Positions 5,801 to 60,840 of a stretch of 64,000 nt of DNA are shown here, in pieces. A program made the translations under genes and the position numbers. Origin of the DNA: Candidatus Woesebacteria bacterium RIFCSPHIGHO2_01_FULL_39_32 (GTDB lineage: Bacteria > Patescibacteriota > Microgenomatia > UBA8517); the NCBI GenBank assembly GCA_001792345.1, contig MGGJ01000013.1, positions 85,371-149,370 of the forward strand. The letters run 5' to 3'. Each line of letters begins with the position of its first letter. The first letter of the stretch is position 1. The notes beneath the pieces are model-generated. The model was not told where the DNA came from. It saw nothing but the letters and a program-made list of their open reading frames with translations, and made no database searches.

Positions 5801-5861
5801 ATTCACGCTCTCGCTCAAAATCCCAAGCCCAAATTTCAAATATCAAATAATTTGGATTTTG
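5801..5861 (-). repeat. Junction hairpin built from AAAATCC heptamer repeats, between rpsF and ssb
   Basis: On the minus strand: AAAAATCCAAAATCCAAATAA CAAAATCCAAATTATTTGATATTTGAAATTTGGGCTTGGGATTTTG. The left arm encodes the rpsF C-terminus KNPKSK and stop. Confidence 0.6.
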
Positions 5862-6155
5862 TTATTTGGATTTTGGATTTTTAACAATAAGATACCTAAT
5901 TATATCACTTTCGAGATGTAATTTATCTTTAAGATTCATAGCTGCCATTCCGTTTAATTCTAGATTAAAGTGAATAAATAAACCAGAATCTTCTTTGCCA
6001 ATTTTATAAGCCAAATCTAACTTTCCCCATTCCTCAGTCTTTTTAATCTTTCCCTCAAGGCTCTTAAGAAGTTTATCTAATTTTTCATTAATCGATTTCT
6101 TCTTCGCGCTAGATGCTCCCCCCGGCAAAACCACAGTTAATTCATAATCGTTCAT
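5862..6155 (-). CDS. rpsF: 30S ribosomal protein S6
   Basis: 97 aa with S6-like composition. Conserved rpsF-ssb-rpsR synteny. Confidence 0.8.
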   Translation of the reverse strand: MNDYELTVVLPGGASSAKKKSINEKLDKLLKSLEGKIKKTEEWGKLDLAYKIGKEDSGLFIHFNLELNGMAAMNLKDKLHLESDIIRYLIVKNPKSK

Positions 6156-6189: not shown

Positions 6190-7161
6190 TCAACTCCCAA
6201 CTTTGAACTCAATAACATCTCCGTCTTGGACTATATAATCCCTTCCCTCTAATTTTACCAATCCCTTCTCCCTTGCCAGTGTCCATATATCGTGATGAGT
6301 TTCTCCTACCTGTCTACCAAGTTCCAGTAGCCGATGCACCAAAATCTCTTCTGCTTTAATAAATCCCTTTGCAAAATCTGTATGTACTTTTTCCGCCGCC
6401 TCAATTGCACTTGCTCCCCTTTTTAAACTCCATGCGTGAACTTCTTTTCCCCCCTTAATAGTATAAAAAGTAATTAAATCAAGCATCGAATATGCTGTTT
6501 TTATAAGTTTTTCCAGACCGGTTTCGGAAACCCCCGCTTGAGAGAGATACTGCCTTCTCTCATCTTCATTAAAGTCGATAAGATCTTCCTCAATTTTTGC
6601 AGAAATTGCTATTGTAGCTATTTTGAACTTTTCTGTAACCGCTATAATTTTTTCTTTTGTATCAAGCGAGTTGATGTCATCCTCTCCGACATTCAAAACA
6701 ATTACACTTGGTTTATCCTTAATTCCACCCAACTCGAGTTCAATGTTGACAATCTCGATATCATCGTAAATTTGCTCCTGTGATCCCGTTTCGTATTTTT
6801 CGTTTTGACTAACAACCGAAGGGTCATAAAAAGCTCTGACAACATGTACAATTGCATCTACTTCGCGGATTTTGGCCAAAAATTGATTTCCTAATCCTTC
6901 GCCTTTATGGGCTCCAGCAACCAACCCTGCGATATCTATAAAAGTCACAGTTGCAGGAATAGTTTTTTCAGGTTTAACCAATTCTGCTAATTTTTCTAAA
7001 TCACTATCTCGCACGGGGACCACTGCTTCGTGCGGCTCTATGGTCGTAAACGGTCTTGGTGCAGTTTCGGCTAAGCGCCTTGATGCAAGCGCATTAAAAA
7101 GTGTTGACTTCCCCACATTCGGAAGACCCACTATCCCGACTGCTAGTTTCGAACTTGACAT
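6190..7161 (-). CDS. ychF: Ribosome-binding ATPase YchF (Obg-family GTPase)
   Basis: G1 GIVGLPNVGKSTLFNALA and the rest matches YchF (TGS-like C-terminus). Start trimmed to MSSSKLAV. Confidence 0.85.
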   Translation of the reverse strand: MSSSKLAVGIVGLPNVGKSTLFNALASRRLAETAPRPFTTIEPHEAVVPVRDSDLEKLAELVKPEKTIPATVTFIDIAGLVAGAHKGEGLGNQFLAKIREVDAIVHVVRAFYDPSVVSQNEKYETGSQEQIYDDIEIVNIELELGGIKDKPSVIVLNVGEDDINSLDTKEKIIAVTEKFKIATIAISAKIEEDLIDFNEDERRQYLSQAGVSETGLEKLIKTAYSMLDLITFYTIKGGKEVHAWSLKRGASAIEAAEKVHTDFAKGFIKAEEILVHRLLELGRQVGETHHDIWTLAREKGLVKLEGRDYIVQDGDVIEFKVGS

Positions 7162-7846
7162 CTTGGATTCCTCCTTTCCATACATTTGCAATTATACTCG
7201 AATTTAAGGCTAAATGCCCATATACTTTTATGTCGTGTTGCGTTCCTACTATCGTGTCTACCACCTTTCGGACAATAGACTGTTTAGCCTCAAACCCCAT
7301 ATCACCAATAACCTTATAGGCTATTTTACAGAATTCATCAATTTCTTTGTCTTCTGGATAGTTATTAACCTCTACTATAGTTTCTCTTTGCATTGAGAAA
7401 ATTTGTTGTTCAATCAACTTTTTTTGTTTCTTTAAATCCTTTGTTGACTCCTTCAACTGATCAGAATCTATCATTTCAGCTCCATAAGCCTTGATGTATC
7501 TTTGTTCTTCCTTTTTGATTCTAGTTAGCTCACTTTTTAATTCTTCAATTGATTTATCGGTTTGTTTCACTTCCTCCTTTTGTTCACCCATCCACCGCCT
7601 TACCTGAGCTTTAAGAACTTTAGGATTAGTCATGTAGTTTGATATGCCATCCCAAACCAGTTTATCTGCAATGCGGGCATTTATCCCCCTCTCATGGCAT
7701 TTACGAGGTAACGGGTGCATATAAACTCTATCTGTACATCGATAATATAAGTGTTTACCCTTCTGTGGCCCCTCACCAGTTCTTCTTCTACCACAGGAGC
7801 AGTAAATCTTTCCTGATGTCCCGATAGAAAATGTAAATTTATTCAA
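7094..7846 (-). pseudogene. Large serine recombinase, C-terminal fragment only: zinc ribbon, coiled-coil and tail. The catalytic resolvase and recombinase domains are missing.
   Basis: Begins at the zinc-ribbon motif CSCG...YYRC...C and is followed by a long coiled coil. There is no room upstream for the ~250-300-aa N-terminal domains. The 3' end overlaps the ychF start by ~67 nt. Confidence 0.6.
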
Positions 7847-7933
7847 TAATTAACTATGCGAAACAAACAACTTTTTTACAAGAACTAACAGGTTACCTGA
7901 GACAAAGGAATAGAGTCGAAGATGACATAACTT

Positions 7934-8530
7934 TTATTTTTTTTCAAATTTATAGTTGAAGTGATCAATATCTTTTTTATAAAGTTTTTGAACTAGTAAG
8001 CGTGTTTTTCGGTCATAGTATTTTGAATAATGGTTTCTTTCAAGCATATTAATGTGTGCGAGTTCTTTATACGTTACATGCAAAATCCCACAAATTTTGT
8101 CAAAGTCATTTTGGATACTTTCAAATCGTCCAACAAAATCTAATATAACTTTTTCACCATCAGAAATCTGATCAAATTGTTGCTGGATAGCAAGATGAAA
8201 AACTGGAGTTTTTATCGGTCCGACTTTAGATTGTCTATATGTTTCTATAAACTCTAACCATTCCTTAAAAGTTTTATTTTTAGCATCCCAACCCCAATGT
8301 TTACTCTTTCTCCATAAGTAGTACGATATCATGCGATCATAAGGATTTCTCACAAATGTAAACTTAAAGTAATTTTCCCAAACACTTTCTCCGACAATTG
8401 TCCTAATGGCAACAGCAGTTTTGTGTTTTTCACCCGGAGGTACTTCGTCTTTTGAAAACACATCCTCTATACTAGTTCCTCCAGTTCTACTAATATGAAC
8501 AAATATAAATTTGTATTTGTGGGAAATCAT
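7934..8530 (-). CDS. Sulfotransferase family protein (carbohydrate-sulfotransferase-like)
   Basis: 5'-PSB-like motif FVHISRTGGTS and 3'-PB-like motif RNPYDRMISYY. Paralogous to the next gene. Confidence 0.6.
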   Translation of the reverse strand: MISHKYKFIFVHISRTGGTSIEDVFSKDEVPPGEKHKTAVAIRTIVGESVWENYFKFTFVRNPYDRMISYYLWRKSKHWGWDAKNKTFKEWLEFIETYRQSKVGPIKTPVFHLAIQQQFDQISDGEKVILDFVGRFESIQNDFDKICGILHVTYKELAHINMLERNHYSKYYDRKTRLLVQKLYKKDIDHFNYKFEKK

Positions 8531-8553
8531 AAGTAATTTTAAGGAAATATTGT

Positions 8554-9183
8554 TTATGTCTCTTGAAATTGATAATTAAAGCATTCAATCTCCTTTATAA
8601 ATAATTCCCTCACTATTTTTCTAGTTTTCTTATTGTAATATTTAGAATAATGCCTTCTATTTTTTCTATGCTTAGATTTTAGTCTAGGCAACTTTGCATT
8701 CGGTATCCCCAGATGGTCACAAACTTGCTTATAGTCTCTATATAAGTTTTCATATCTTATATAATAATCGCAAATTAGTTTTCCCTGAGCATTAAAATAA
8801 AAACGTGTATTTGTCCATTTTTGTTCAAAATTTTCAATAAAGTAGTTAAAAACCAAATCTGGTTCAGTACGATATTTCTCCCAATGATATCGAGAAACAA
8901 CCTGGTCCCAAGGATTTCGTATAACTGTAAACTTATAATAATTATTCCATGTATCGTTCCTAATTTTCTTCTTTATTTCGCTTGGAGGAAGGTGATTATA
9001 ATAACCATCAAAATTCCTCGCCAGATGTTCGTATCGATCATCATCTGAACTTTCAGAATATTCTGTAATAGGTGTAATTATGTCCTCTTTGCCACAACTC
9101 TCAGCTAGAGCGACCTCCAAACTCGTTCCCGCCACCTTTGTCGGTTTAATAAAAATATATTTATGTTTATGCGAAATAATCAT
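8554..9183 (-). CDS. Sulfotransferase family protein (paralog of the previous gene)
   Basis: KPTKVAGTS and RNPWDQVVSRY motifs, with a shared HYSKYY segment. Confidence 0.6.
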   Translation of the reverse strand: MIISHKHKYIFIKPTKVAGTSLEVALAESCGKEDIITPITEYSESSDDDRYEHLARNFDGYYNHLPPSEIKKKIRNDTWNNYYKFTVIRNPWDQVVSRYHWEKYRTEPDLVFNYFIENFEQKWTNTRFYFNAQGKLICDYYIRYENLYRDYKQVCDHLGIPNAKLPRLKSKHRKNRRHYSKYYNKKTRKIVRELFIKEIECFNYQFQET

Positions 9184-9311
9184 AGTTAATTTGATTGCTC
9201 ATCGTTTATATTCTACGTGATTTATGTTTATATACCATTCAATTACAATTTTAAAAAATTACACGATATTTTACCACTTCAGAACTCTAGTTTATAATTT
9301 CATTATTAACA

Positions 9312-9947
9312 GTGATAAAGAAGCAACAAGAAATAAAAGCAATCATCTTTGATGTGGGTGGAGTAATTCTTGATCTTAATAAAAAGAAAACACTAAGAAT
9401 CCCAGAGTCAATATCTACAATATATGGCATTTCTATCGAGGAGGCTCGCAAAATCTGGGTCACTTATGATCGGAGAAGCCTACTGACTGGTGCTGAAACA
9501 CCCAAAACCTTTCTACGAAATATCTCACGAGCCATTGATACCAGTAAAACTCCAGAGACTCTTTACGAGGAATGGACTAAACTTAGTCTAAAAGAAGAGA
9601 ATTGTATTGATTGGAAGCTATTAGATTTTATCAAAAATTTAAGAGAGAAATACAAAATCTATGTTATGAGCAACGCAGTAAATATTGCCCAAGAAGACAA
9701 GTTAACACGGACGATTAAATCGATGTTTGACAAGTATTTTGTTTCCTATGAAGAGGGATTTAGAAAACCTGAGAAAGAGGCGTTTCTTAATGTTCTTAAA
9801 AAAATCGACTGCAATCCCGAAAATTGTATTTTCGTGGATGACACTTTAATAAACATCAATACAGCGAAAGAAATGAAAATCAACTCAATAATTTACAAGA
9901 GTCTGGAACAGCTTAAAAAAGATATTAAAGAAATAGTTGATAAATAA
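9312..9947 (+). CDS. HAD-superfamily hydrolase (subfamily IA-like)
   Basis: Motif I FDVGGV (DxG), followed by SNA and a DD motif (FVDDT). Confidence 0.7.
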   Translation: MIKKQQEIKAIIFDVGGVILDLNKKKTLRIPESISTIYGISIEEARKIWVTYDRRSLLTGAETPKTFLRNISRAIDTSKTPETLYEEWTKLSLKEENCIDWKLLDFIKNLREKYKIYVMSNAVNIAQEDKLTRTIKSMFDKYFVSYEEGFRKPEKEAFLNVLKKIDCNPENCIFVDDTLININTAKEMKINSIIYKSLEQLKKDIKEIVDK

Positions 9948-10174
9948 ATTTGATAAACAATTTCTTGGATAATGATATATTTTGATCTTAGAGAAAAAGT
10001 TATGACTTGTTATTAGTGGAATTAACTTATATAAATTTCATACTAAGGAGTGTGGTCTTATTTTTAAATTTAAACCCAAGCATGGAAAGTACTAAACAAG
10101 TTACTGTCTAAGAAGATAACAAACGAACCTTTTCCTCAAATAAATGCAGGCAACCAAACAGAAAAGTAATCACA

Positions 10175-10816
10175 TTACTCATCCTTGAATGCCTTTTGTG
10201 CACCTTTATATTCTTCTGGCGTATCAACATCCATCCATTTTGAATTAGGATTAACTTCTACAGTTCTAAATCTGGTTGTATTCGGTCCGACACCCCACCA
10301 TCTTATATTATCCAAGTCATCATAAATTTTTTTCAATCTTTCTTTATCAACAACTTCACATACTTCAGATCCAACCCCCTCTTCTTTAGAAAACTTGATA
10401 ATATAACCGTCTTTGATTACCAGTTTCATTGCCTCTGGATCAGTTGTTCGTAAATCTACCAAAGAAATACTTTCGCTTTTAAACGAATTAACTAATTTAG
10501 GAATTAAATCGTTACTTAAAAGCAGATCGGCATCTAGCATCACCGTATCTTCAAAGCCTATACGATCTAAGGCAACTTTTAGTGACCGTGCATTATCTGC
10601 TGTGTGATATAACGGATCATTTATTAAAACGACATCGGGAAGTTCCAAAAACTTTTCAGCTTTAAAACCAGTAACAACATATATCGGTTTTATTCCTGCA
10701 GATTTAAGTTGCCTAATAAGACGCCCAATAATAGTTTCTTCGTTTATTTTTAAAAGAGATTTGACTTTACCTTCAAACCTTGTCCCTTTACCTGCTGCTA
10801 AAATTATCGCTCTCAT
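10175..10816 (-). CDS. Sugar-phosphate/phospho-alcohol nucleotidyltransferase (LicC/MobA-like NTP-transferase fold)
   Basis: N-terminal MRAIILAAGKGTRF signature. ~213 aa with a C-terminal extension. Confidence 0.65.
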   Translation of the reverse strand: MRAIILAAGKGTRFEGKVKSLLKINEETIIGRLIRQLKSAGIKPIYVVTGFKAEKFLELPDVVLINDPLYHTADNARSLKVALDRIGFEDTVMLDADLLLSNDLIPKLVNSFKSESISLVDLRTTDPEAMKLVIKDGYIIKFSKEEGVGSEVCEVVDKERLKKIYDDLDNIRWWGVGPNTTRFRTVEVNPNSKWMDVDTPEEYKGAQKAFKDE

Positions 10817-12528
10817 TGTATTTGTTTATCAAAATTATCCTTGCTTGTTATTAATGTATTTATAGCTTCTTCAATATGCTCTGGAGTTATTAACGGTGAA
10901 GTAGGATATAACTTGATTGCAGATATTTTAATACCACTAGGTGTACTACAGTAACCTTTACTAAAAGAGTATTCCACACCCTGATTTTTATGAATTCGAT
11001 CCTTTTTGTCAAAACTAAAGAAATCTTCGTTATATTTATTTAAGTTTTCAATGAACTTTGCCATCTTGGGTGAATTATCCTCAAGTTGTTTATTAACCAA
11101 ACTTGATCCTTGCAAAGATATTGGTATCAATTGAAGCATAGTAACAAAGCCCAAAGAATCTGTGTTTACTATATTAAAATTAGCATCACTATGAGCAAGA
11201 ACTCTAGTTAATCTGGCCATTTGAACTAAATTAGCCAAATGTGCCTGAAGGCCCTTAACTCCTAAAGTAAAAATAGTTGTCAATCCAGCCAAAGCGGCAC
11301 CCCCAGGTCTTGAGGTTTCTAGTGTATAACTAACGGGATTTATATGGCTGAATTCCTGAGCCAGTTGATGAAGATTGCTCCCATCTTCATTTTGTTGAAG
11401 TAAAGTGGCAAAACTATCACTATTATTCATAATAACCATACTACAGGGAATGGGACTAGAACCAATTCCTTTATGAAAATCTACACCCCATGAATCAGCC
11501 ATTGCTATTGCTGCAGCTTTTTTAGCCTGAATATTAAGTATCTTTAATGTATTAGACTCAATATCAAGTTCATTTCTGTCAAAATCGTAATCCCTAAATA
11601 CCAAGAATGACCAACCTATCACAGAGTCGACATGTACATGGGGAACATATCTTAATTCGTATTTCTTTACCAATTTATTCCTCATCTCTACAAACTTGTT
11701 GATGTTGTCAATAGCATTATCATATGTAGTTCCACCATTAACAATAATTGCTGGTACCAAAAAATCATTTTCTATCGCCGATTTAATTTCATTCTCTGCT
11801 CTAGATATATTTGTTGTCCTATCTCTGTTTGCTTGCATAACAATGGCATTTTCCTCGCCAATTCCCAACCAGTTGAGACTTGTCATGTGTGAGAAATGAG
11901 AATCCTCTGTAATCGCAATTTTTATTTTCCCTCTTAATCCCAGTTTTTTTGATTGTGGTACTGCCTTTGTTATTGCTACCTTAATAGCATATAAATTCGT
12001 CCCTGTCCCACCAAATGTAAATATACCCGCAGATTTATCAGGGTCGACTCCCGCCAAAAGTGATAAAATCCTACAAACAACTTTCTCAGCTGCTAGAGCA
12101 TTACCAGCAAGACCGTCATTTATGTTATATACGTTAACTTCTTGGGATATTGCATACAATACATTGGAAGCTATATTAGTAGCAGAACCAACATTATACT
12201 GAAGCAATGGACTTTTCCAAATCGGTGCGCCAGCTAAAAAATCTTTTGCTAGATTTAAAATTAACTTTTCATCTTTGACTGTTTCATTGGGGAGTTGACT
12301 ATATTTAGATAGCAAGGATGCATATACTTCCTTATTTGAATTTCCACGGACCCTAGCTCTGTTTAGACTGTTCGTTAAATCTAAATTATCAAATATCCGT
12401 CTATATAGTTCTATAAAAAGTTTAGTATCCTTAACAGGAAACCATCTGTACAGTTCATGAACATAGTTATTCTGTTTTTTTAACTTTTTTATCTCTACCT
12501 TAGTCGCTTTGGATAAAATCCTAGTCAT
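10813..12528 (-). CDS. Group II pyridoxal-phosphate-dependent decarboxylase
   Basis: HVHVDSVIGW (HVDAAxGG-like) and PLP-lysine motif SWGVDFHKGIGSSPIPCS (S-x-D-x-HK...P..C). 4-nt overlap with the upstream cytidylyltransferase gene. Confidence 0.75.
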   Translation of the reverse strand: MTRILSKATKVEIKKLKKQNNYVHELYRWFPVKDTKLFIELYRRIFDNLDLTNSLNRARVRGNSNKEVYASLLSKYSQLPNETVKDEKLILNLAKDFLAGAPIWKSPLLQYNVGSATNIASNVLYAISQEVNVYNINDGLAGNALAAEKVVCRILSLLAGVDPDKSAGIFTFGGTGTNLYAIKVAITKAVPQSKKLGLRGKIKIAITEDSHFSHMTSLNWLGIGEENAIVMQANRDRTTNISRAENEIKSAIENDFLVPAIIVNGGTTYDNAIDNINKFVEMRNKLVKKYELRYVPHVHVDSVIGWSFLVFRDYDFDRNELDIESNTLKILNIQAKKAAAIAMADSWGVDFHKGIGSSPIPCSMVIMNNSDSFATLLQQNEDGSNLHQLAQEFSHINPVSYTLETSRPGGAALAGLTTIFTLGVKGLQAHLANLVQMARLTRVLAHSDANFNIVNTDSLGFVTMLQLIPISLQGSSLVNKQLEDNSPKMAKFIENLNKYNEDFFSFDKKDRIHKNQGVEYSFSKGYCSTPSGIKISAIKLYPTSPLITPEHIEEAINTLITSKDNFDKQIQ

Positions 12529-12551
12529 GAATTGTAGTATACTATTTTAGT

Positions 12552-13796
12552 ATGAAATTGGCATTTTTAGCTTATAATAGAGATCCTTCAATACCCGAAG
12601 TTGATAATGATGGTAACCCTGTAATTGTTAGAAATTATAGTTATTGGTTAGCTAAATACGGACACACAATTGATATTTTTGTAAATAAAGTAATTCCTAA
12701 CAATCTTAGCAACGAATATACTAGAAAAAAATATAATTTACAGAAAAAATCCCGATTAGAGCTTTTTCCTGGAGTTAAGGTGGTAAGAATAAAAACATCA
12801 GATTTAACTGCTAAAGAATTATTCAAGACCGTCGAGTTGCAGGAAATTCCAGAAATAACACAATCTGTTCTTTCTGCATCCTACTTTAAAACAACACTTC
12901 TATCTGATTACGATCTGGTCTGTATTTTCCACCCATTAACTGCTTTTGGAGTTATCTTTCGGGACCTGCTTCCCTTAAACAAAACTTTATTGTTCCCAAT
13001 GTTGCTAAGCGATGAGTATTTGAAATTTGGAAGTGTATCTCCTATTTACATCGATCTAGAACAAATGGTTTTAGAAAGCGTAAATAAAATATATAGTACA
13101 TCAAATGATGAAAAGAAAGTATTAGTCTCCAGAAACATACCACAAGAAAAAATTGAAGTAATTCGTAGAGGAATTGATATAAATACATTTCCCTATAAAC
13201 AAAAGGAATCCATAAGAGTTCGCAATGAAATTAATATAGTTACTGTCGGTTCTCTTCGTCCCCAAAAACGTCAGCATATTTTAGTAGAAGTTATTGAGAA
13301 TTTATTATCGAGAGGGCTTAAGGCAAAACTGCAAATTGTTGGTGAGAACAAATTTTTTACTAAAAAAGAGTATGAAGATTATTTCAACAGTATTAAGTCA
13401 GCAATTCTAAAAAAAGATTTGGAAGACTATATTGTTTTCGTTGGTGGAGTTGAACCTGATCAAGTAGGAGAGTTGCTAAATTCTGCAGACCTTGCAATAT
13501 TTCCTTCAATTTCAGAATCATTTGGCAAAGCTGCTTTGGAATCTATTTGTTCCGGAACACCTACCATAATTGCTAGTGAGTGCTCAGCTTATAAGGAATT
13601 TGCCCTTGATCAAGAAAATGCTATTTTCTCTTCAAGTAATTCAAAGGATATTACTAAAGCTGTATTAAATTTAATAAATAACGAAGAACGGTATCTTCAC
13701 TTATCTAAAAACGGATTAAAAACAAGGAAAGAATTTTCGTGGCAAAATGTATCAAAGATCCTTGAGACCTCACTTTTGAGATCGACCACATCCTAG
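12552..13796 (+). CDS. Glycosyltransferase family 4 (GT-B, group 1)
   Basis: C-terminal GT4 signature FPSISESFGKAALESICSGTPTIAS with an EX7E-like region. Confidence 0.8.
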   Translation: MKLAFLAYNRDPSIPEVDNDGNPVIVRNYSYWLAKYGHTIDIFVNKVIPNNLSNEYTRKKYNLQKKSRLELFPGVKVVRIKTSDLTAKELFKTVELQEIPEITQSVLSASYFKTTLLSDYDLVCIFHPLTAFGVIFRDLLPLNKTLLFPMLLSDEYLKFGSVSPIYIDLEQMVLESVNKIYSTSNDEKKVLVSRNIPQEKIEVIRRGIDINTFPYKQKESIRVRNEINIVTVGSLRPQKRQHILVEVIENLLSRGLKAKLQIVGENKFFTKKEYEDYFNSIKSAILKKDLEDYIVFVGGVEPDQVGELLNSADLAIFPSISESFGKAALESICSGTPTIIASECSAYKEFALDQENAIFSSSNSKDITKAVLNLINNEERYLHLSKNGLKTRKEFSWQNVSKILETSLLRSTTS

Positions 13797-13900
13797 CAAC
13801 TTCGTAAATCGTTGCCCTCAAATCTCAATCTTATAAATTGCAATAAAACAGCTGTTAGGGAATAAATATTTTTGTTGACACTTTTTTCAAAATACTTTAT

Positions 13901-15538
13901 TTATTCATATTTTGCGTATAGGGGCTTAGGTTTTTTAAGTTTAACCTTATCTACAGTCTCAGATAATAAATTTTTAATATCTTTAGTTTTCCACAATTCG
14001 TTATTTTCAAGACCATTTACTAGTAAATATTCCGAACTAGCATTTGGAGTAATCGGTTCCATTAACATCGCAATTGCATATGTTAATACAAACAAGTCGG
14101 CTCCTACTTTTTTGAATTTTTCTTCATCGTTTTTCTTTAATATCCATGGTTTTTTGTCATTGAAATATTCATTAGCAAAATTGGATAATTCCAATATTTC
14201 ATTTACATAATCCTTAAACTTTGACCCCCTAATATCTTGCTTAGATTTTTCAACCGCTGTATTTATTCTCTCTGTAATCTCATTAGTCAAATTAGATCTT
14301 TTAAGTTTAACTCCTGCATAGATATGAAGTGTTCTGTTAATGTAATTTCCTATGTGTCCTACTAACAGATCGTTGTTTTTTCGCAAAAAATCCTCCATAG
14401 TAAAGCTAGAATCAGAGTTCTCCGGCATAATAGTTGTCAAGGCAAAACGAAGTGCATCAGAACTGTACTTTTTAATAAAGCCAGCTGTATCAATCACAAC
14501 CCCCCTACTCTTTGAAAACTTCTTACCGTCTAAGTTTAAAAACTGATTAACTGCAGGTTGATCTGGCAACTTCAGCTTTAGATCATAGGTCATTAATTGA
14601 CCTGGCCAAAATATTGTATGGAAAACCAAGTTATCTTTGCCCATGAAGTAGTAGTGTTTTAAGTTACGTCCAATCCAAAAATTCTCCCAGTTTTTGTTAT
14701 TTTTATCTGCCCATTCAACTGAAGCTGAATAGTAACCTATAACGGCATCGAACCAAACATATATTCGCTTACTTTCACTGTTGGGTAACTCTTTGGCTAT
14801 TTTTTTCGGAATCGGAACTCCCCAATCCAGATCGCGAGTCACTGCTCTTGGCTTAAGCCCTTCATCTAGCCAATTCTTTGTTTGTCCTAAAACCCAGTTT
14901 CTCCAGTTAATCGAGTTCTCATTAACATACCTCTCAATATCTTTTTGTAACTTATCCCAACAAATATACAGGTGGTCAGTACCTCTCAAAACAACCTTTT
15001 TCCCATCTAATTTGCTAGTTGGTTTTTTCAAATCTTGATTCAGTAATTTCCCGCAGTTATCGCACTGATCGCTTCTCGCACCATCAAAACCACAGTAAGG
15101 ACAAGTCCCTTCTACATATCTGTCTGGAAGAAACTTGTTTTCACTTTCTGAATAGTATTGTTCTTGCTTCTGAATATCAATTAACCCTTTTTCCCAGAAT
15201 GCTAATAAGAACTCTTGAGTAATCTTTTTATGATTTTCAGTGTTAGTCTTAGTGTATAAATCAAATGTTAATCCAAGATTTTTGAACAATTTTACGTTTT
15301 TTGGATGATATTCATTTACTATGTCATCTGGTTTAACTTTCTTCTTATCAGCCTCAACCGTGATAGGTGTGCCAAAACAATCGGATCCTGAAACCATTAA
15401 AACTTTATGTCCCATTAACCGATAGGCTCTAGCTGTAATGTCAGCTGGAAGCAGATAGCCTGCAACGTGCCCAATATGCAAATTTCCATTAACATAAGGC
15501 CAAGCAACTCCAATAAATATTTTAGTCTTAACATTCAT
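13901..15538 (-). CDS. metG: Methionyl-tRNA synthetase, short form without a C-terminal tRNA-binding domain
   Basis: HIGH (LHIGHVAGY), a zinc knuckle CPYCG...CDNCG and KMSKS (KFSKSRG). Confidence 0.9.
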   Translation of the reverse strand: MNVKTKIFIGVAWPYVNGNLHIGHVAGYLLPADITARAYRLMGHKVLMVSGSDCFGTPITVEADKKKVKPDDIVNEYHPKNVKLFKNLGLTFDLYTKTNTENHKKITQEFLLAFWEKGLIDIQKQEQYYSESENKFLPDRYVEGTCPYCGFDGARSDQCDNCGKLLNQDLKKPTSKLDGKKVVLRGTDHLYICWDKLQKDIERYVNENSINWRNWVLGQTKNWLDEGLKPRAVTRDLDWGVPIPKKIAKELPNSESKRIYVWFDAVIGYYSASVEWADKNNKNWENFWIGRNLKHYYFMGKDNLVFHTIFWPGQLMTYDLKLKLPDQPAVNQFLNLDGKKFSKSRGVVIDTAGFIKKYSSDALRFALTTIMPENSDSSFTMEDFLRKNNDLLVGHIGNYINRTLHIYAGVKLKRSNLTNEITERINTAVEKSKQDIRGSKFKDYVNEILELSNFANEYFNDKKPWILKKNDEEKFKKVGADLFVLTYAIAMLMEPITPNASSEYLLVNGLENNELWKTKDIKNLLSETVDKVKLKKPKPLYAKYE

Positions 15539-15804
15539 GAGTGCTATTTTACATTATTTACACATGTGTTGAAACTTGCGATCTCAAAATTCTCCCTTTC
15601 TCATCTCTCTCCAAAATCAATCTAGATATTTTTGGTGGTGGCATTTTAACTGTGAATTGGAATGGAATTACTTTCTCCTCTGAAGATATTGGTTCTGGCT
15701 CTAACTGATTGTTTGAGCCTGAAGTTGGAGTTCCGCCCTGTGAGTTCCGACAGAAAGTGACATATTGAAGCAATTTTACACCCCGTAATGATTAACTCAA
15801 AATA

Positions 15805-36588: not shown

Positions 36589-36690
36589 ATAGTAATTTTA
36601 CTACATAAATTTAAAATCCAAAATCCCAATTTCAAAATCTAAATTAATTTGATATTTGTCATTTGGATTTGGGATTTGCTAAACTTTAGT
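36589..36690 (-). repeat. Homologous heptamer-repeat hairpin element in the ybaB leader (about 80% identical to the ssb copy over ~65 nt)
   Basis: On the minus strand: AAATCCCAAATCCAAATGACAAATATCAAATTAATTTAGATTTTGAAATTGGGATTTTGGATTTT. Confidence 0.6.
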
Positions 36691-40550: not shown

Positions 40551-41812
40551 TAAGAAAGTTTATTAACAATCTGACCTAATGACAAAAGCTCAGTATTATC
40601 TTTAATTCTCTCTTTCCACTCAATTTTAGCACCTGTATTTTCAGAAATGACTAATCTAACCGGAATTCCGATGAGATCTGCGTCTGCAAATTTTTCCCCA
40701 GCAGACACTTCCCTATCATCCCAAAGAACTTCTATCCCCGCGTTTCCTAATTTCTCATAAACTTCCCGAGCAAGATTTTGGATTTTGGATTTTGGATTTT
40801 GGATTTGAAGAAGGTGTGCCTCAAAAGGTGCTATCGTTTTATTCCAAATAATTCCCTTTTCATCATGACTCACCTCAACCCAAGCCCCCATTACACGAGT
40901 CGAACCTATTCCATAACTTCCAAACCAAATCGGCTTTTTCTTACCTTCTTTATCAGTGTAATAGACTCTCATTCTCTCTGCATACCAAGTACCCAGTGGA
41001 AAAATGTTCCCAACCTCAATTGACTTGGATTCGACAATTTTCCCCTTCTTGCACTTCTGGCATTTATCTCCCTTTTTACCTTTAAATATTTCTTTATTTT
41101 GCCCCCAACCACACGAATCACAATAATAGATAGTATCCTCTCCCCCTTCAGAAATAACCTGGAATTCGTGTGTATACTTATCAGTAAAAACTCCACCCGA
41201 AGCCTCAATCACCCTAAAATCAAATCCAAGCCTTTGGAAAATTTTGGAATATGCTTCTTTGGCCCTCTCATAGTAATCCATTAAATCTTTTTCTGTTGAA
41301 TGTGCAGAATAAAGATCTTTCATCATAAATTCCCTACCCCGAAGTATTCCACTTTTAGTTCTCAATTCATTCCTAAACTTAGTAGAAAAGTGATACAGAT
41401 AGACTGGTAAATCCGCATGGCTTACAACATTTTTTCGGAGTAAATCCATTACAATCTCTTCATGCGTGAATGAAAGGGCATACTCTCTACCAGCCTGATC
41501 TTTAAATTGATACATCACATCCTTGGCCTTATCCCAACGACCCGTTTCACTCCATATACTTTTAGGATGCCGCAGAGGCATAAGAAGTTCCTGCCCTCCA
41601 ATAGCATTCATTTCTTCACGGATAATGTTATTTATCTTTTGTATAACACGCCAACCAAGAGGAAGTAGGGTCCAACCACCTGCCATCAGCTGATCTATAA
41701 ATCCACCTCGGACTAGGTATTTATGATTAACGCTCTCCGCTTCCCTTGGTGCCTCTTTTTTTGTTTTAGGAAAGAGTTTAGATTGCAACATATTAATATA
41801 ATTTACCACCAA
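40550..41812 (-). CDS. proS: Prolyl-tRNA synthetase, minimal bacterial-type with no INS editing domain
   Basis: Colinear with bacterial ProRS (WTLLPLGWRV..., motif 2 FRNELRTKSGILRGREFMMKD, motif 3). A CxxC-x17-CxxC mini-insert sits at the usual INS position. Anticodon-binding C-terminus. Confidence 0.85.
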   Translation of the reverse strand: MVVNYINMLQSKLFPKTKKEAPREAESVNHKYLVRGGFIDQLMAGGWTLLPLGWRVIQKINNIIREEMNAIGGQELLMPLRHPKSIWSETGRWDKAKDVMYQFKDQAGREYALSFTHEEIVMDLLRKNVVSHADLPVYLYHFSTKFRNELRTKSGILRGREFMMKDLYSAHSTEKDLMDYYERAKEAYSKIFQRLGFDFRVIEASGGVFTDKYTHEFQVISEGGEDTIYYCDSCGWGQNKEIFKGKKGDKCQKCKKGKIVESKSIEVGNIFPLGTWYAERMRVYYTDKEGKKKPIWFGSYGIGSTRVMGAWVEVSHDEKGIIWNKTIAPFEAHLLQIQNPKSKIQNLAREVYEKLGNAGIEVLWDDREVSAGEKFADADLIGIPVRLVISENTGAKIEWKERIKDNTELLSLGQIVNKLS

Positions 41813-52178: not shown

Positions 52179-54032
52179 TTAACTTCTCCCATCAGTAATA
52201 TTAGAAAGCTTTTCCTGGGTTCTGACTTCTGCTTTTAATCTACCTAAACCATAATCTTCTACCCAGTTAACGTGGGCAAAATGTGGTTCTAAAAACGGAT
52301 ATACTCCGAGAATTTGGCGAGCAGCTTCCTGTAAAGCTCTTCTATATGAAGGGTGACCCCCTTCAATAGTTCGAAGCTCCGCAAAAAATGCCCACTGACG
52401 TATGTTTGCCCGTACATTAAACCTCAATTTATTTCCAAACATTGTTACGTACTCAGAAGCGTCAAACAATTTCGGATTACCGCTTGTCGTCAATTTCCTG
52501 TTTAAATCCTTAGTTGATTGAGCTAATCGCTCGTAATCAGTTCGCACCTCCTCCATTCCTTCCTCATAAAATTCCTCTGGTATAAACAATTCATCTGCTG
52601 TAAGCATTTGGCGCTCAGTTGAGCTTATTCTATTCCTTTGTAAATCTCTATAAATACCAAAATCTACATCGAATTCGACCTCTGCTGTGGTGTGCTCGAA
52701 AGCACGAGGGAGTTTATGGCGTCTACTTAAGCCCTTTGCACTTCTTTCCGGAACTGCAGATGCGATTAACTCTGCAAGTCTCGGGCTATATGTTAACTCG
52801 GGATTTCTCTGCAAATCTTCTTCTTTGATTACCCTTAACCGTTCTCTGATAGCTGCTTTTGATAGTCCTTTATTTTTTTGTCCAGTATATACCAGTTGAG
52901 TTGCTATCCTTAAATCAGCATCCTCGTCCCAATCAACTAACCTAACTGCTTCAGTATCTCCGGGAGTAATTCCCTCAACCCAGCTTTCAACCGCGGTTCT
53001 CTGGGTATTCCTAACATCTCTCAGATATTCTCTAGTTCTTGATCCATGGGCGTGATCCACATTCTGCAAAAAACTCGGTGCAACTTTTTCCAACTCGTGA
53101 TAAGCCATAACTCCGAGAAGCCTTACTTCCGGATGTTGGGAGGAAATCATCTTATTTATTGTATGCTCTGCAGCTTGTCCAGAATAGTGAGCACCTAAAT
53201 TTGTAACGGTAGTAGTAGGAAGAAAAACTCGAATAGTATCAAAGGTTTTTGCCTTTAATGCGCGTTCATACGCTTTTTGCACCCTTACTTTATCATCCTC
53301 GTTTCCTATTTCATCATATTTAACTTCCTGACCTGTGCTAGGAACTAAGACAACCTGTTCCTCTAAAGGATATTTCCTTCTTAACATCAGTTGTGTTGCT
53401 GGGATGTGCCTTTTATATGCTTCGAATGATGCAATACTCCAATCCAGATATTCCTGCGCAAATTCAGAATTCATTACTGTTGGCTCCTCCATAAAAAGAA
53501 AATGCCCATCAACGTTGCTTCCGAAATCTACATATCTAGTTGACTTTTCAATGTAGGCAGAGGCAACTCTCTGGTCTTCAATTGCCTTGGCTGCTATTTG
53601 AGAAACAAATTCGAAAGAAATGTGAACACTTCCCATTTGAATTACCGAGTCATCGCCATATTCGGCAAATACTCTCCTATAAAATTTCTCCGCGTGTTCC
53701 TTAGCGCTTTCAATTCCTTCTCCTTTTGTTTCTATAATATTTTCCGTTATATTCTGTATGCCTAGTTCCTCACTTGCCCAAAATTCATCTAAAAATACTC
53801 GACGCACACTTTTACTAGTCCGACTGTATCTTGAAAACATCGCCCCAACAACTTCTTGAGGAAGACCATATATAGCAAAAACAGGGCTATCTGTATTTGT
53901 AAAGAACTTGGATAAAACTGCCTCTTCTTCTGGAGTAAATTCTTCTTGTGTGTAAGGAAAAGGGAATCTGTCAGGAAGAGAAAGAGTTTCTGTTTTTAAA
54001 ACGTGCGTTTTTTCAAGAAACTCTCTAGTCAT
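52179..54032 (-). CDS. thyX: Fused tandem ThyX-like protein (two flavin-dependent thymidylate-synthase-like domains) with non-canonical RHR motifs
   Basis: The C-terminal domain aligns to the ThyX core (HTTAEVEFDVDFGIYRDLQRNRISSTERQ versus H.T.FE..VFTF.V.API.VARQ..RHR.AS..E.S.RY, and FNVRANIRQWAFFAELR versus [20 protein letters not shown]). The N-terminal half has a weaker ThyX-like block (FAIYGLPQEVVGAMFSRYSRTS). Flanked by tmk and dcd. Confidence 0.5.
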   Translation of the reverse strand: MTREFLEKTHVLKTETLSLPDRFPFPYTQEEFTPEEEAVLSKFFTNTDSPVFAIYGLPQEVVGAMFSRYSRTSKSVRRVFLDEFWASEELGIQNITENIIETKGEGIESAKEHAEKFYRRVFAEYGDDSVIQMGSVHISFEFVSQIAAKAIEDQRVASAYIEKSTRYVDFGSNVDGHFLFMEEPTVMNSEFAQEYLDWSIASFEAYKRHIPATQLMLRRKYPLEEQVVLVPSTGQEVKYDEIGNEDDKVRVQKAYERALKAKTFDTIRVFLPTTTVTNLGAHYSGQAAEHTINKMISSQHPEVRLLGVMAYHELEKVAPSFLQNVDHAHGSRTREYLRDVRNTQRTAVESWVEGITPGDTEAVRLVDWDEDADLRIATQLVYTGQKNKGLSKAAIRERLRVIKEEDLQRNPELTYSPRLAELIASAVPERSAKGLSRRHKLPRAFEHTTAEVEFDVDFGIYRDLQRNRISSTERQMLTADELFIPEEFYEEGMEEVRTDYERLAQSTKDLNRKLTTSGNPKLFDASEYVTMFGNKLRFNVRANIRQWAFFAELRTIEGGHPSYRRALQEAARQILGVYPFLEPHFAHVNWVEDYGLGRLKAEVRTQEKLSNITDGRS

Positions 54033-60737: not shown

Positions 60738-60840
60738 ATTTTATGACATTCTCAGCGGGCTGAGAGCCCGCTGTTTCACACATGAGCGAGAATGACATAT
60801 CAAGTTCAATTCCTCCGTGGGCTAAGAGCCCACGGTTTCC
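60738..60840 (+). promoter_or_regulatory. Pair of near-identical GC-rich hairpins in the leader of the O-antigen-ligase-like gene
   Basis: CAGCGGGCT GAGA GCCCGCTG and CCGTGGGCT AAGA GCCCACGG are each perfect 9-bp stems with 4-nt loops, ~60 nt apart. Both are preceded by (A)TGACAT. Confidence 0.4.

What the first reader, a model, noticed from the sequence alone, without database searches (positions are those of the whole stretch)
7094..9183. Decayed integrative element: truncated large serine recombinase beside two tandem sulfotransferases
ORF 7094-7846 contains only the zinc-ribbon (CSCG...YYRC...C), coiled-coil and tail of a large serine recombinase. The catalytic domains are absent and it overlaps the ychF start. 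Directly upstream are two paralogous family-2 sulfotransferases with 5'-PSB and 3'-PB-like motifs. Carbohydrate sulfotransferases would be unusual in a minimal episymbiont-type genome, as far as I know. Together with the glycan genes at 9.3-13.8 kb this suggests a horizontally acquired surface-sulfation module. One weaker copy of the palindromic element lies at 7896-7921.
Basis: partly seen in the sequence, partly recalled or inferred. Interest (0 to 1): 0.6.

Follow-up and report, generated by a model that had tools for sequence, protein, structure and literature searches.

The report
Locked-in serine-recombinase island at ychF
The truncated recombinase marks one end of an 8.6-kb mobile island inserted into the start of the ychF gene of a Woesebacteria (CPR) genome; the island carries two sulfotransferases, glycan genes and a methionyl-tRNA synthetase, and its attachment site lies inside the recombinase gene itself, which is unusual.

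Summary
The core observation holds. ORF 7094-7846(-) is the C-terminal about 42% of a large serine recombinase (LSR): zinc ribbon, coiled coil and tail, with no catalytic domains. It overlaps ychF by 68 nt. The two ORFs upstream are real Sulfotransfer_2 proteins (Pfam; the AlphaFold model of one matches solved PAPS sulfotransferases).

Both ends of the element can be placed. attR is at 7136|7135, inside ychF codon 9. attL is at 15747|15746, where the displaced native ychF start (ATGTCACTTTCTGTCGG) sits. The shared core is GTCGG. Joining the outer flanks restores the N-terminus MSLSVGIVGLPNVGKST, as in element-free relatives.

The island is 8,611 bp (7136-15746). It holds the LSR relic, both sulfotransferases, a HAD hydrolase, a nucleotidyltransferase, a PLP decarboxylase, a GT4 glycosyltransferase and MetRS. 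Related islands with the same ends and other cargo sit at ychF in at least two other genomes.

attP lies inside the LSR gene, so integration replaces a conserved 62-residue C-terminus with 13 host-encoded residues. The relic supplies ychF's promoter-like site, Shine-Dalgarno sequence and first codons. A deletion of the catalytic half has left the island unable to move itself.

A sulfation function and a PAPS source are untested. The palindrome claimed at 7896-7921 was not confirmed.

The parts
7136..15746 (-). Integrated island between the two att junctions (8,611 bp). Gene order on the - strand: attL, LSR tail ORF, MetRS, GT4, PLP decarboxylase, nucleotidyltransferase, HAD, sulfotransferase B, sulfotransferase A, LSR relic, attR.
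   Evidence: The ends are defined. Element-type sequence is conserved in L102 and L008 on the inner sides, and host-specific sequence lies on the outer sides.
15747..15763 (-). Displaced native 5' end of ychF (ATGTCACTTTCTGTCGG = MSLSVG), ending in the attL copy of the core GTCGG (15751-15747). It lies 42 nt after the stop of the cupredoxin gene.
   Evidence: Joined to 7135 and downward, it gives MSLSVGIVGLPNVGKSTLFN, the N-terminus seen in element-free relatives.
15773..15800 (-). Promoter-like site (TTGAGT-16-TAAAAT). It is probably the native ychF promoter and now points into the island (tail ORF and MetRS).
   Evidence: This is a consensus match only; function is inferred.
15558..15746 (-). 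Detached 3' end of the LSR gene: 62 codons plus TAA (NSQGGTPTSGSNNQLEPEPISSEEKVIPFQFTVKMPPPKISRLILERDEKGRILRSQVSTHV). It is in frame with the relic across a reconstructed attP.
   Evidence: It is the only open frame here in the window, L102 and L008, with dN/dS 0.13-0.30. The tail is contiguous with the LSR body in P0039 and P0335.
13901..15538 (-). Methionyl-tRNA synthetase (545 aa) inside the island. Its ATG lies 20 nt after the stop of the LSR tail.
   Evidence: Pfam tRNA-synt_1g and related families. Position relative to attL.
12552..13796 (+). GT4 glycosyltransferase (island cargo).
   Evidence: Pfam Glycos_transf_1, E 1.3e-27.
10813..12528 (-). Long PLP-dependent (group II) decarboxylase (island cargo).
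   Evidence: Pfam Pyridoxal_deC. The family occurs among Patescibacteria and Nanoarchaeia records.
10175..10816 (-). MobA-like nucleotidyltransferase (NTP_transf_3), overlapping the decarboxylase stop.
   Evidence: Its best full-length NCBIfam match is to a phospho-alcohol cytidylyltransferase, far below the curated cut-off.
9312..9947 (+). HAD-family phosphatase (island cargo).
8554..9183 (-). Sulfotransferase B (209 aa, Sulfotransfer_2). Motifs TKVAGTS and RNPWDQVVS.
7934..8530 (-). Sulfotransferase A (198 aa, Sulfotransfer_2). Motifs SRTGGTS (Lys replaced by Arg) and RNPYDRMIS.
7813..7817 (-). Deletion junction. Homology to LSR genes begins here; about 320 codons (resolvase and recombinase domains) are missing upstream.
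7094..7846 (-). LSR relic ORF. Codons 11-237 are element-encoded (zinc ribbon 7643-7816, coiled coil and C-terminal part); codons 238-250 (7097-7135) are host ychF DNA read in another frame; the stop codon is 7094-7096.
7136..7140 (-). attR copy of the core GTCGG. The junction lies between 7136 and 7135.
   Evidence: Against five other genomes, identity to the window is 86-100% from -200 to +26 of ychF and falls to about 47% (75% for L101) at +60 to +100.
7136..7220 (-). Element-supplied expression signals and start of ychF: -35-like TGGGCA 7220-7215, TATAAT 7196-7191, GGAGG 7174-7170, ATG 7161, and codons 1-9 (MSSSKLAVG).
   Evidence: Promoter function is inferred.
6190..7161 (-). ychF (323 aa), the target gene. 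It is intact and chimeric: the first 26 nt come from the element and the rest from the host.

Best explanation
Window 7136-15746 is an integrated genomic island of a family that uses a large serine recombinase to insert into the first codons of ychF. The steps below are marked as shown or inferred.

Shown by sequence:
- Recombination took place at a 5-bp core, GTCGG.
- The right junction (attR, 7136|7135) joins the element's own ychF-like start (SD, ATG and 9 codons) to the host gene, so YchF stays intact with a new N-terminus, MSSSKLAVG.
- The left junction (attL, 15747|15746) keeps the displaced native start, MSLSVG.
- The attachment site lies inside the recombinase gene. In the free form the LSR ends in a conserved 62-residue tail that is encoded on the far side of the core. 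After integration that tail is stranded at attL, and the LSR instead ends in 13 residues read from ychF in another frame.
- A deletion removed the first roughly 320 codons of the LSR, which encode the catalytic and recombinase domains.

Inferred:
- The island can no longer move by itself.
- The remaining 3' part of the LSR gene survives because it carries the promoter, ribosome-binding site and start of ychF.
- The cargo was brought in with the element and probably decorates a cell-surface glycan, including with sulfate. The cargo is MetRS, a GT4 glycosyltransferase, a PLP decarboxylase with a nucleotidyltransferase, a HAD phosphatase and two PAPS-type sulfotransferases.
For: LSR identity and truncation.

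Same position in independent genomes. An LSR or a remnant lies directly upstream of ychF and stops at the same TAA inside the LFN codons in L007, L008/9, L010-12, L013-15, L055 (intact, 552 aa, Resolvase plus Zn ribbon), L100, L101 and L102/3.

attR. DNA identity to the window is 86-100% up to ychF +26 and then collapses. The YchF proteins are only 42-49% identical, whereas the relics are 81-90% identical.

attL. The native ychF start is followed by sequence 79-85% identical to L102 and L008. Their own attL/attR pairs bound islands of 5.8 and 5.1 kb.

Reconstructed attB. It encodes the N-terminus of element-free relatives.

Tail.
- It is open only in the LSR frame, with dN/dS 0.13-0.30.
- It is contiguous with the LSR body in P0039 and P0335.
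- Most other library hits are 42-99 aa orphan ORFs, as expected for stranded tails.

Foreign character of the cargo.
- It has the lowest GC/GC3 in the window.
- It is absent upstream of ychF in about 45 relatives, where DnaX-RecR-CysRS-HAD usually precedes ychF.

Sulfotransferase fold and motifs.

Promoter-like site and SD inside the relic, conserved in six genomes.

Not an assembly artefact.
Against: - No excised (attP) or empty (attB) form of this particular island was observed. The attP form is inferred from two homologous proteins and from reconstruction.
- The island contains MetRS, normally a single-copy essential gene, which is odd cargo.
- The block MetRS-GT4-decarboxylase-nucleotidyltransferase is colinear at 63-80% protein identity in L106 and L108, next to a different LSR family. 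It may therefore have been chromosomal and captured, or inserted into the island after integration.
- Other islands of this family carry no sulfotransferases.
- No PAPS-synthesis gene is in the 64 kb, so sulfotransferase activity has no demonstrated donor.
- Sulfotransferase A has Arg in place of the family's nearly invariant 5'-PSB Lys.
- The promoter assignment rests on a consensus scan only.
Confidence: 0.78

Rival explanations
1. The att sites are real, but the interior was remodelled after integration. On this view MetRS and the glycan or sulfotransferase genes were not brought by the ychF-targeting element. They were captured from, or inserted out of, chromosomal DNA, or swapped in from another island.
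For: - The block MetRS-GT4-decarboxylase-nucleotidyltransferase is colinear in L106 and L108, where a different 446-aa LSR and a non-homologous Sulfotransfer_4 follow it.
- The three islands with the same ends have entirely different cargo.
- MetRS has ordinary GC3 for this genome.
Against: - The LSR tail stop lies only 20 nt from the MetRS start, which suggests an established arrangement.
- The L106/L108 block is itself bounded by unrelated flanks and ends about 200 bp after an LSR, so it looks like another island and not core chromosome.
- Nothing in the interior resembles a second junction.
Confidence: 0.15
2. The sulfotransferases and glycan genes are ordinary host genes. On this view the LSR relic was simply brought next to them by a deletion that removed the rest of the element, including its far end.
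For: Before attL was found, this fitted two facts: the relic has a different GC from the genes beside it, and this LSR family is not linked to sulfotransferases elsewhere.
Against: attL lies beyond these genes at 15747|15746, with element-type sequence on its inner side and the native ychF start on its outer side. The genes are therefore inside the junctions.
Confidence: 0.05
3. The truncated LSR is not a dead relic. It would be kept as a protein (zinc ribbon plus coiled coil), for example to bind att sites and block or modulate incoming related elements.
For: - The 250-codon frame has no stop or frameshift.
- dN/dS against L007, L100 and L101 is 0.04-0.07 with dS about 1.
- Remnants are far more conserved than the host genes beside them.
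Against: - There is no Shine-Dalgarno sequence or good start codon at 7846 or at the internal ATG.
- Truncation points differ in every genome, and remnants are fused to unrelated genes: NUDIX, His_Phos_1 and glutaredoxin.
- The low dN/dS can be inherited from the time when the genes were intact and mobile.
- Retention is explained more simply by the ychF promoter, SD and start codons that the fragment carries.
Confidence: 0.1
4. The junction at about 7816 is an assembly chimera.
For: Two related contigs (L100, L101) break inside the relic, which shows that assemblers have trouble at this spot.
Against: The identical gene order occurs in JGI, ENA and NCBI assemblies from several samples, on contigs up to 168 kb.
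Confidence: 0.01

Closest known systems
Large serine recombinase (serine integrase) elements: phiC31, Bxb1, A118, TP901-1, SPbeta SprA, SCCmec Ccr (from my own knowledge of the family)
   Same: Intact relatives have the full domain order: resolvase catalytic domain, recombinase domain, zinc ribbon and coiled coil. The recombinase gene sits at one end of the element next to the att site. The common core is very short (5 bp here), so there are no long flanking repeats. The target lies inside a protein-coding gene.
   Different: Here the core lies inside the recombinase's own reading frame, so integration changes the enzyme's C-terminus. The target gene is repaired by an element-borne 5' end and is not split. 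The copy in the window lacks the catalytic half.
Pipolins with LSRs that use ychF as integration site in Actinomycetota (PMC11551731)
   Same: The same class of recombinase and the same target gene were inferred there from genetic context.
   Different: The window has no piPolB, the hallmark of pipolins. The other loci were not specifically searched for it; L013 has only a Pol-beta-like fragment. The phylum and cargo differ. The paper text I read gives no exact position in ychF to compare.
Defective Streptococcus pneumoniae prophage whose int gene lies immediately upstream of ychF and switches ychF expression (PMC8637289, citing Chen et al. 2019)
   Same: A degraded integrated element sits directly upstream of ychF and influences its expression.
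   Different: In that case attB is listed between a DUF951 gene and ychF, not inside the coding start. I did not check the type of integrase.
Archaeal 'suicidal' SSV-type tyrosine integrases (PMC8371274)
   Same: The recombination site lies inside the recombinase gene, so integration parts the gene into two pieces at opposite ends of the element.
   Different: Those are tyrosine recombinases. They lose an N-terminal piece and become inactive, and the review states they are known only in Archaea. Here a bacterial serine recombinase loses only its last 62 residues and gains 13 host-encoded ones. Its activity after the swap is unknown.
Integration-dependent immunity of mycobacteriophages (PMC9262239; Broussard et al. 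2013)
   Same: attP lies within the 3' end of a gene, so integration replaces the C-terminus of its product.
   Different: There the affected gene is the repressor, which loses a degradation tag. The integrase is of the tyrosine type and the target is a tRNA gene.
Sulfotransfer_2 (PF03567) PAPS-dependent sulfotransferases; short forms of about 200 aa
   Same: Both proteins score above the Pfam threshold. They carry the 5'-PSB-like and 3'-PB-like motifs, and the model of one has the sulfotransferase fold.
   Different: They are compact (198-209 aa, against 250-300 for the solved enzymes). There is no close relative: the best is 42% identical. The two top hits whose surroundings I inspected lie in contigs that look like giant-virus genomes, with arrays of sulfotransferases and eukaryote-type glycosyltransferases. 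Substrate and donor supply are unknown.

Membership tests
Large serine recombinase | N-terminal resolvase catalytic domain with the serine nucleophile (PF00239) | tested here: not met
   It is absent from the window ORF and from the whole 64 kb. It is present in relatives at the same locus: L055 (intact), L010, and P0062/P0059. The window copy is a gene fragment, not an enzyme.
Large serine recombinase | Recombinase domain (PF07508) | tested here: not met
   It is absent from the window ORF. It is present in P0001, which is 91% identical over the shared part.
Large serine recombinase | Zinc ribbon domain with four Cys (PF13408) | tested here: met
   E 8.4e-7, above the cut-off. All four invariant Cys of the family alignment are present.
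Large serine recombinase | Coiled-coil insertion and C-terminal part of the zinc ribbon domain | tested here: inconclusive
   The region aligns along its whole length with family members. No coiled-coil predictor or structure model was run.
Site-specific integrative element | Two hybrid junctions that recombine back to an intact target and a closed element | tested here: met
   attL is at 15747|15746 and attR at 7136|7135, with core GTCGG. The reconstructed attB encodes the native YchF N-terminus. The reconstructed attP closes the LSR reading frame. The same holds in L102 and L008.
Site-specific integrative element | Observed excision or an empty site in the same species | not testable with these tools
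   All contigs found for this species carry the island. Raw reads could not be searched.
Recombinase whose att site lies in its own gene ('suicidal'-type) | The core lies inside the recombinase ORF, and the gene is parted by integration | tested here: met
   The frame continues across the reconstructed attP for 58-63 codons in three islands, under purifying selection. Unsplit homologues are P0039 and P0335.
Recombinase whose att site lies in its own gene ('suicidal'-type) | Loss of activity after integration | not testable with these tools
   Only the last 62 residues are exchanged.
Pipolin | Primer-independent PolB (piPolB) gene | tested here: not met
   No ORF I scanned in the window has a DNA-polymerase family match; three ORFs of 120 aa or more outside the island were not scanned. 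L013 has only a Pol-beta-like fragment.
PAPS-dependent sulfotransferase (Sulfotransfer_2) | Profile match above the curated threshold | tested here: met
   64 and 33.7 bits against a cut-off of 22.
PAPS-dependent sulfotransferase (Sulfotransfer_2) | 5'-PSB (K-x-x-G-T-S/T) and 3'-PB (R-x-P-x-x-R-x-x-S) motifs | tested here: met
   B has TKVAGTS and RNPWDQVVS (Arg replaced by Gln in the second motif). A has SRTGGTS (Lys replaced by Arg) and RNPYDRMIS. The invariant His36, Arg61, Asn62 and Glu137 of the family alignment are present in both.
PAPS-dependent sulfotransferase (Sulfotransfer_2) | Sulfotransferase fold | tested here: met
   The model of A has pLDDT 88.7. Its top Foldseek PDB hits are almost all PAPS sulfotransferases, with TM about 0.5 and E down to 1e-3. 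B was not modelled.
PAPS-dependent sulfotransferase (Sulfotransfer_2) | Availability of PAPS (sat/cysC or uptake) and measured activity | not testable with these tools
   No such gene is in the 64 kb.

The most novel reading that the evidence does not exclude
The placement of attP inside the LSR gene may be a working switch. The free element would make an LSR with a conserved C-terminal motif (IPFxFxIKxPPP...RDxxGRI), and integration would swap that motif for host-encoded residues. The swap would change the enzyme's activity or direction. This would be a bacterial, serine-recombinase counterpart of the archaeal 'suicidal' integrases and of integration-dependent immunity. The same family of islands would carry an aminoacyl-tRNA synthetase and sulfated-glycan genes between distantly related CPR bacteria.
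Probability: 0.3. Interest if true: 0.8.

Novelty: new variant of a known kind. Interest (0 to 1): 0.6.

Why it matters
Mobile elements of CPR/Patescibacteria are poorly described. My literature searches found nothing on large serine recombinases or on sulfotransferases in these bacteria.

This locus gives a fully delimited island with reconstructable attB and attP. That makes a new LSR/att pair directly testable, and such pairs are sought as genome-engineering tools.

The locus also shows a recombinase whose attachment site lies in its own gene. A 2021 review describes that arrangement as exclusive to archaeal tyrosine integrases (PMC8371274).

The target repair shows how an island can take over the expression of a conserved GTPase gene, and why a recombinase stump is then retained.

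The cargo raises two concrete questions about episymbiont biology. Do these cells display sulfated glycans, and where would they get PAPS? And can an essential-type gene, MetRS, travel on, or be held hostage by, a mobile island?

Tried and rejected
- Long direct or inverted repeats as att sites: none found.
- A second copy of the ychF 5' end, sought by tblastn and blastn-short with the element-type start: nothing. The duplicated part is only 17 nt and uses different codons. It was found only by searching for the native N-terminal peptide.
- tRNA target: there is no tRNA gene in the window.
- The 26 kb between ychF and the CysRS-HAD block as the island: rejected. That stretch holds KsgA and other ordinary genes, and attL lies at 15.7 kb.
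- My intermediate view that the glycan genes are vertically inherited host genes (after): overturned by attL.
- Phage origin: no close relative of the LSR or of the junction sequence in IMG/VR. Only LSRs at 22-28% identity over most of their length turned up, plus a few 40% matches limited to the zinc ribbon.
- Sequence search of PDB with sulfotransferase A alone: no hit. A profile gave only weak sulfotransferase hits.
- MetRS scan of metagenome contigs: only two distant loci, uninformative.
- Organism names for the sulfotransferase homologues: almost none available.
- The palindromic element at 7896-7921: not reproducible.


Full report
**Source and observation**

The window is part of a 168.5-kb contig of Candidatus Woesebacteria bacterium RIFCSPHIGHO2_01_FULL_39_32 (GCA_001793105.1). 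The same gene order is present in independent JGI, ENA and NCBI assemblies.

ORF 7094-7846(-) matches only the zinc ribbon of large serine recombinases (LSRs): Pfam PF13408, aa 11-68, E 8.4e-7. It has weak NCBIfam matches to the C-terminal parts of CcrC and CcrB.

Compared with longer relatives, homology begins at nt 7816. The first 10 codons are unrelated, and about 320 N-terminal codons are missing; these encode the resolvase and recombinase domains. No other LSR piece with a catalytic domain is in the window.

ychF starts at ATG 7161 behind GGAGG (7174-7170), so the overlap is 68 nt.

The two upstream ORFs match Sulfotransfer_2 above threshold. They are 28% identical to each other. Both carry the family's 5'-PSB and 3'-PB motifs and the other invariant residues; A has Arg in place of the motif Lys. 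An AlphaFold model of A (pLDDT 88.7) finds almost only PAPS-dependent sulfotransferases among solved structures.

The small palindrome claimed at 7896-7921 could not be reproduced.

**The recombinase belongs to a family that sits at ychF**

A protein search found 64 relatives. Every locus I could inspect has the LSR, or a stump of it, directly upstream of ychF:
- L007: 91% identical; catalytic end frameshifted.
- L008/L009: stump fused to a NUDIX gene.
- L010-12: 540 codons with one in-frame stop, inside an element with primase, an HTH_17 protein and a reverse transcriptase.
- L013-15: frameshifted.
- L055: an intact 552-aa LSR.
- L100 and L101.
- L102/L103: stump fused to a His_Phos_1 gene.

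In all of them the LSR frame stops at the same TAA inside the LFN codons of ychF.

Among about 45 related ychF loci from species-representative genomes, only L055 has the recombinase. None has sulfotransferases, GT4, the decarboxylase or MetRS upstream of ychF. The usual neighbours are DnaX-RecR-CysRS-HAD, which in the window lie at 33-38 kb.

**The right junction (attR)**

The window was compared with L007, L008, L100, L101 and L102.
- DNA identity is 86-100% from -200 to +26 of ychF and is perfect or nearly so over ATGTCAAGTTCGAAACTAGCAGTCGG.
- It then falls to about 47% (75% for L101) by +60 to +100.
- The YchF proteins are only 42-49% identical and the neighbouring core proteins 54-73%, whereas the recombinase stumps are 81-90% identical.

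So everything up to ychF nt 26 is element DNA and the rest is host DNA.

Element-bearing genes begin MSSxxLxVG. Element-free relatives begin M(S)LSVG.

The stump also holds a promoter-like TGGGCA-18-TATAAT (7220-7191) and the Shine-Dalgarno sequence, both conserved in the six genomes. I infer that this is why a stump is always kept. The shortest stump seen elsewhere still has about 60 codons (P0064).

**The left junction (attL)**

Searching all frames for the native N-terminal peptide found MSLSVG at 15763(-), 42 nt after the cupredoxin gene.

The DNA reads ATGTCACTTTCTGTCGG. From 15746 downward it is followed by sequence 85% identical to L102 and 79% identical to L008, over 135 and 183 nt respectively. 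The DNA before the core is unrelated in the three genomes.

Joining the outer flanks gives MSLSVGIVGLPNVGKSTLFN in the window, MSSLSVGIVG... in L102 and MSGSNLAVGIVG... in L008. All three are intact native YchF starts.

The common core is GTCGG: 15751-15747 and 7140-7136. The island is 8,611 bp in the window, 5,803 bp in L102 and 5,107 bp in L008.

The three islands share only their ends. L008 carries ThyX, a thymidylate-kinase-like gene, UDG-like and NUDIX genes. L102 carries PIG-L, GT4, a reverse transcriptase, a 5'-3' exonuclease and an acetyltransferase.

**The attachment site lies inside the recombinase gene**

The junction falls on a codon boundary of the LSR frame (...AGT CGG|).

To the right of the attL core, that frame stays open for 62 codons in the window (15746-15561, stop 15560-15558), 58 in L102 and 63 in L008. 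The other two frames are closed. The peptide is conserved with many synonymous changes, and dN/dS is 0.13-0.30.

Two relatives carry this tail joined to the body of the protein. In P0039, BLASTP against the reconstructed window sequence runs straight through the junction (E 3e-65). In P0335, zinc ribbon and coiled coil are followed by LIPFSFKIKLPPPRYERIIMSRDESGRILESV.

Most other library hits to the tail are orphan ORFs of 42-99 aa, as expected for stranded tails.

So the free element encodes an LSR with a conserved C-terminal motif. Integration replaces those 62 residues by 13 residues read from ychF in another frame. Whether this changes activity is not known.

[quoted passage not shown] Integration-dependent immunity in mycobacteriophages is the nearest bacterial parallel, but there the affected gene is the repressor (PMC9262239).

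ychF as an LSR target has been inferred for pipolins of Actinomycetota (PMC11551731). A defective pneumococcal prophage next to ychF affects its expression (PMC8637289).

**State of the relic**

The frame is intact, and dN/dS against L007, L100 and L101 is 0.04-0.07 with dS near 1. The cut is therefore recent relative to the divergence of the copies, or the fragment is under selection.

There is no ribosome-binding site for the stump, and truncation points differ between genomes.

**Cargo**

Inside the junctions, reading from attL, lie:
- MetRS, whose ATG is 20 nt after the LSR tail stop.
- GT4 glycosyltransferase.
- A 571-aa PLP decarboxylase, overlapping a MobA-like nucleotidyltransferase.
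- A HAD phosphatase.
- The two sulfotransferases.

The six genes from GT4 to sulfotransferase A have the lowest GC in the window, and all but the HAD gene the lowest GC3 (z -1.2 to -2.4). MetRS has ordinary GC3.

Sulfotransferase A has no relative above 42% identity. The two top hits I examined lie in contigs that look like giant-virus genomes. These contigs hold arrays of sulfotransferases, glycosyltransferases of families GT25, GT61, GT90 and GT92, and ribonucleotide reductase.

The decarboxylase family occurs among Patescibacteria and Nanoarchaeia records.

In L106 and L108 the order MetRS-(GT2)-GT4-decarboxylase-nucleotidyltransferase is kept at 63-80% identity. It is followed by a non-homologous Sulfotransfer_4, a DSE/heparinase-II/III-like protein and an intact 446-aa LSR of another family. 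The 11.5-kb colinear block has unrelated flanks in the two genomes and ends about 200 bp after that LSR.

This arrangement is the circular permutation of the window island. It suggests a set of MetRS-plus-glycan-sulfation islands that exchange recombinases. It equally allows the block to have been captured from a chromosome, which is the main rival reading.

No PAPS-synthesis gene is in the 64 kb.

**Verdict**

The core observation is confirmed; the side claim of a palindrome at 7896-7921 is not.

What is new beyond an ordinary decayed island:
- exact junctions in a CPR genome;
- repair and promoter capture of ychF;
- the att site inside the serine recombinase gene;
- MetRS among the cargo.

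Function of the sulfotransferases, the PAPS source, the number of metG copies and any regulatory role of the C-terminal swap remain open.

Noticed in passing
L106:5341-16874 and L108:259-11762: An 11.5-kb block is colinear between the two genomes: methyltransferase, MetRS, GT2, GT4, PLP decarboxylase, nucleotidyltransferase, Sulfotransfer_4, a DSE/heparinase-II/III-like protein of 774 aa, and an intact 446-aa LSR of a different family. DNA identity is 70% and the flanks are unrelated. It looks like a second kind of MetRS-plus-sulfation island.
   Followed up: partly
L096:4945-12165; L098:7381-8603: The top sulfotransferase A relatives I inspected (about 40% identical) sit in contigs of 69-218 kb. 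These hold arrays of up to seven Sulfotransfer_2/4 genes, eukaryote-type glycosyltransferases (GT25, GT61, GT90, GT92) and ribonucleotide reductase, so they look like giant-virus genomes.
   Followed up: partly
window 15773-15800 and 15761-15763: The presumed native ychF promoter (TTGAGT-16-TAAAAT) ends only 9 nt before the native ATG, and there is no Shine-Dalgarno sequence. The native ychF may have been nearly leaderless, whereas the element supplies a strong GGAGG. After integration this promoter points at the LSR tail ORF and MetRS.
   Followed up: partly
L010:9488-11110: This otherwise complete 540-codon LSR at ychF has a single in-frame stop after the resolvase domain. The same sequence is seen on nine contigs. 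It could be a pseudogene, or the stop could be read through.
   Followed up: no
L013:1369-3841: This LSR at ychF is frameshifted in the coiled coil. The small gene beside it matches DNA polymerase beta palm and thumb domains.
   Followed up: no
window 5846-5880, 36643-36677, 40772-40806, 55650-55684: A family of TTTGGATTTTGGATTT-type repeats, partly palindromic with AAATCCAAAATCC at 36607-36649, recurs in intergenic spots of the window.
   Followed up: no
window 60753-60773 and 60815-60835: Two similar G+C-rich hairpins lie 60 nt apart before the gene at 60792: CAGCGGGCTGAGAGCCCGCTG and CCGTGGGCTAAGAGCCCACGG.
   Followed up: no
window 7192-33056 compared with L016, L017, L027, L029, L034, L037, L064: In many related genomes DnaX-RecR-CysRS-HAD lies directly upstream of ychF. 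In this genome about 17 kb of other genes (cupredoxin, GSDH, KsgA, a two-component system, an amidase, a C39 peptidase) lies between that block and the island. The region upstream of ychF is therefore a rearrangement hot spot apart from the island itself.
   Followed up: partly
window 52179-54032: The ThyX-like ORF has 617 aa with two Thy1 matches, about twice the usual length.
   Followed up: no
L100:1-704 and L101:1-659: Two metagenome contigs end inside the LSR stump just upstream of ychF. Assemblies tend to break at this element.
   Followed up: no
window 6190-7161 compared with L007, L008, L100-L102: YchF is less conserved between these genomes (42-49% identity) than the neighbouring SSB, S41 peptidase and trypsin-like protease (54-73%).
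   Followed up: no
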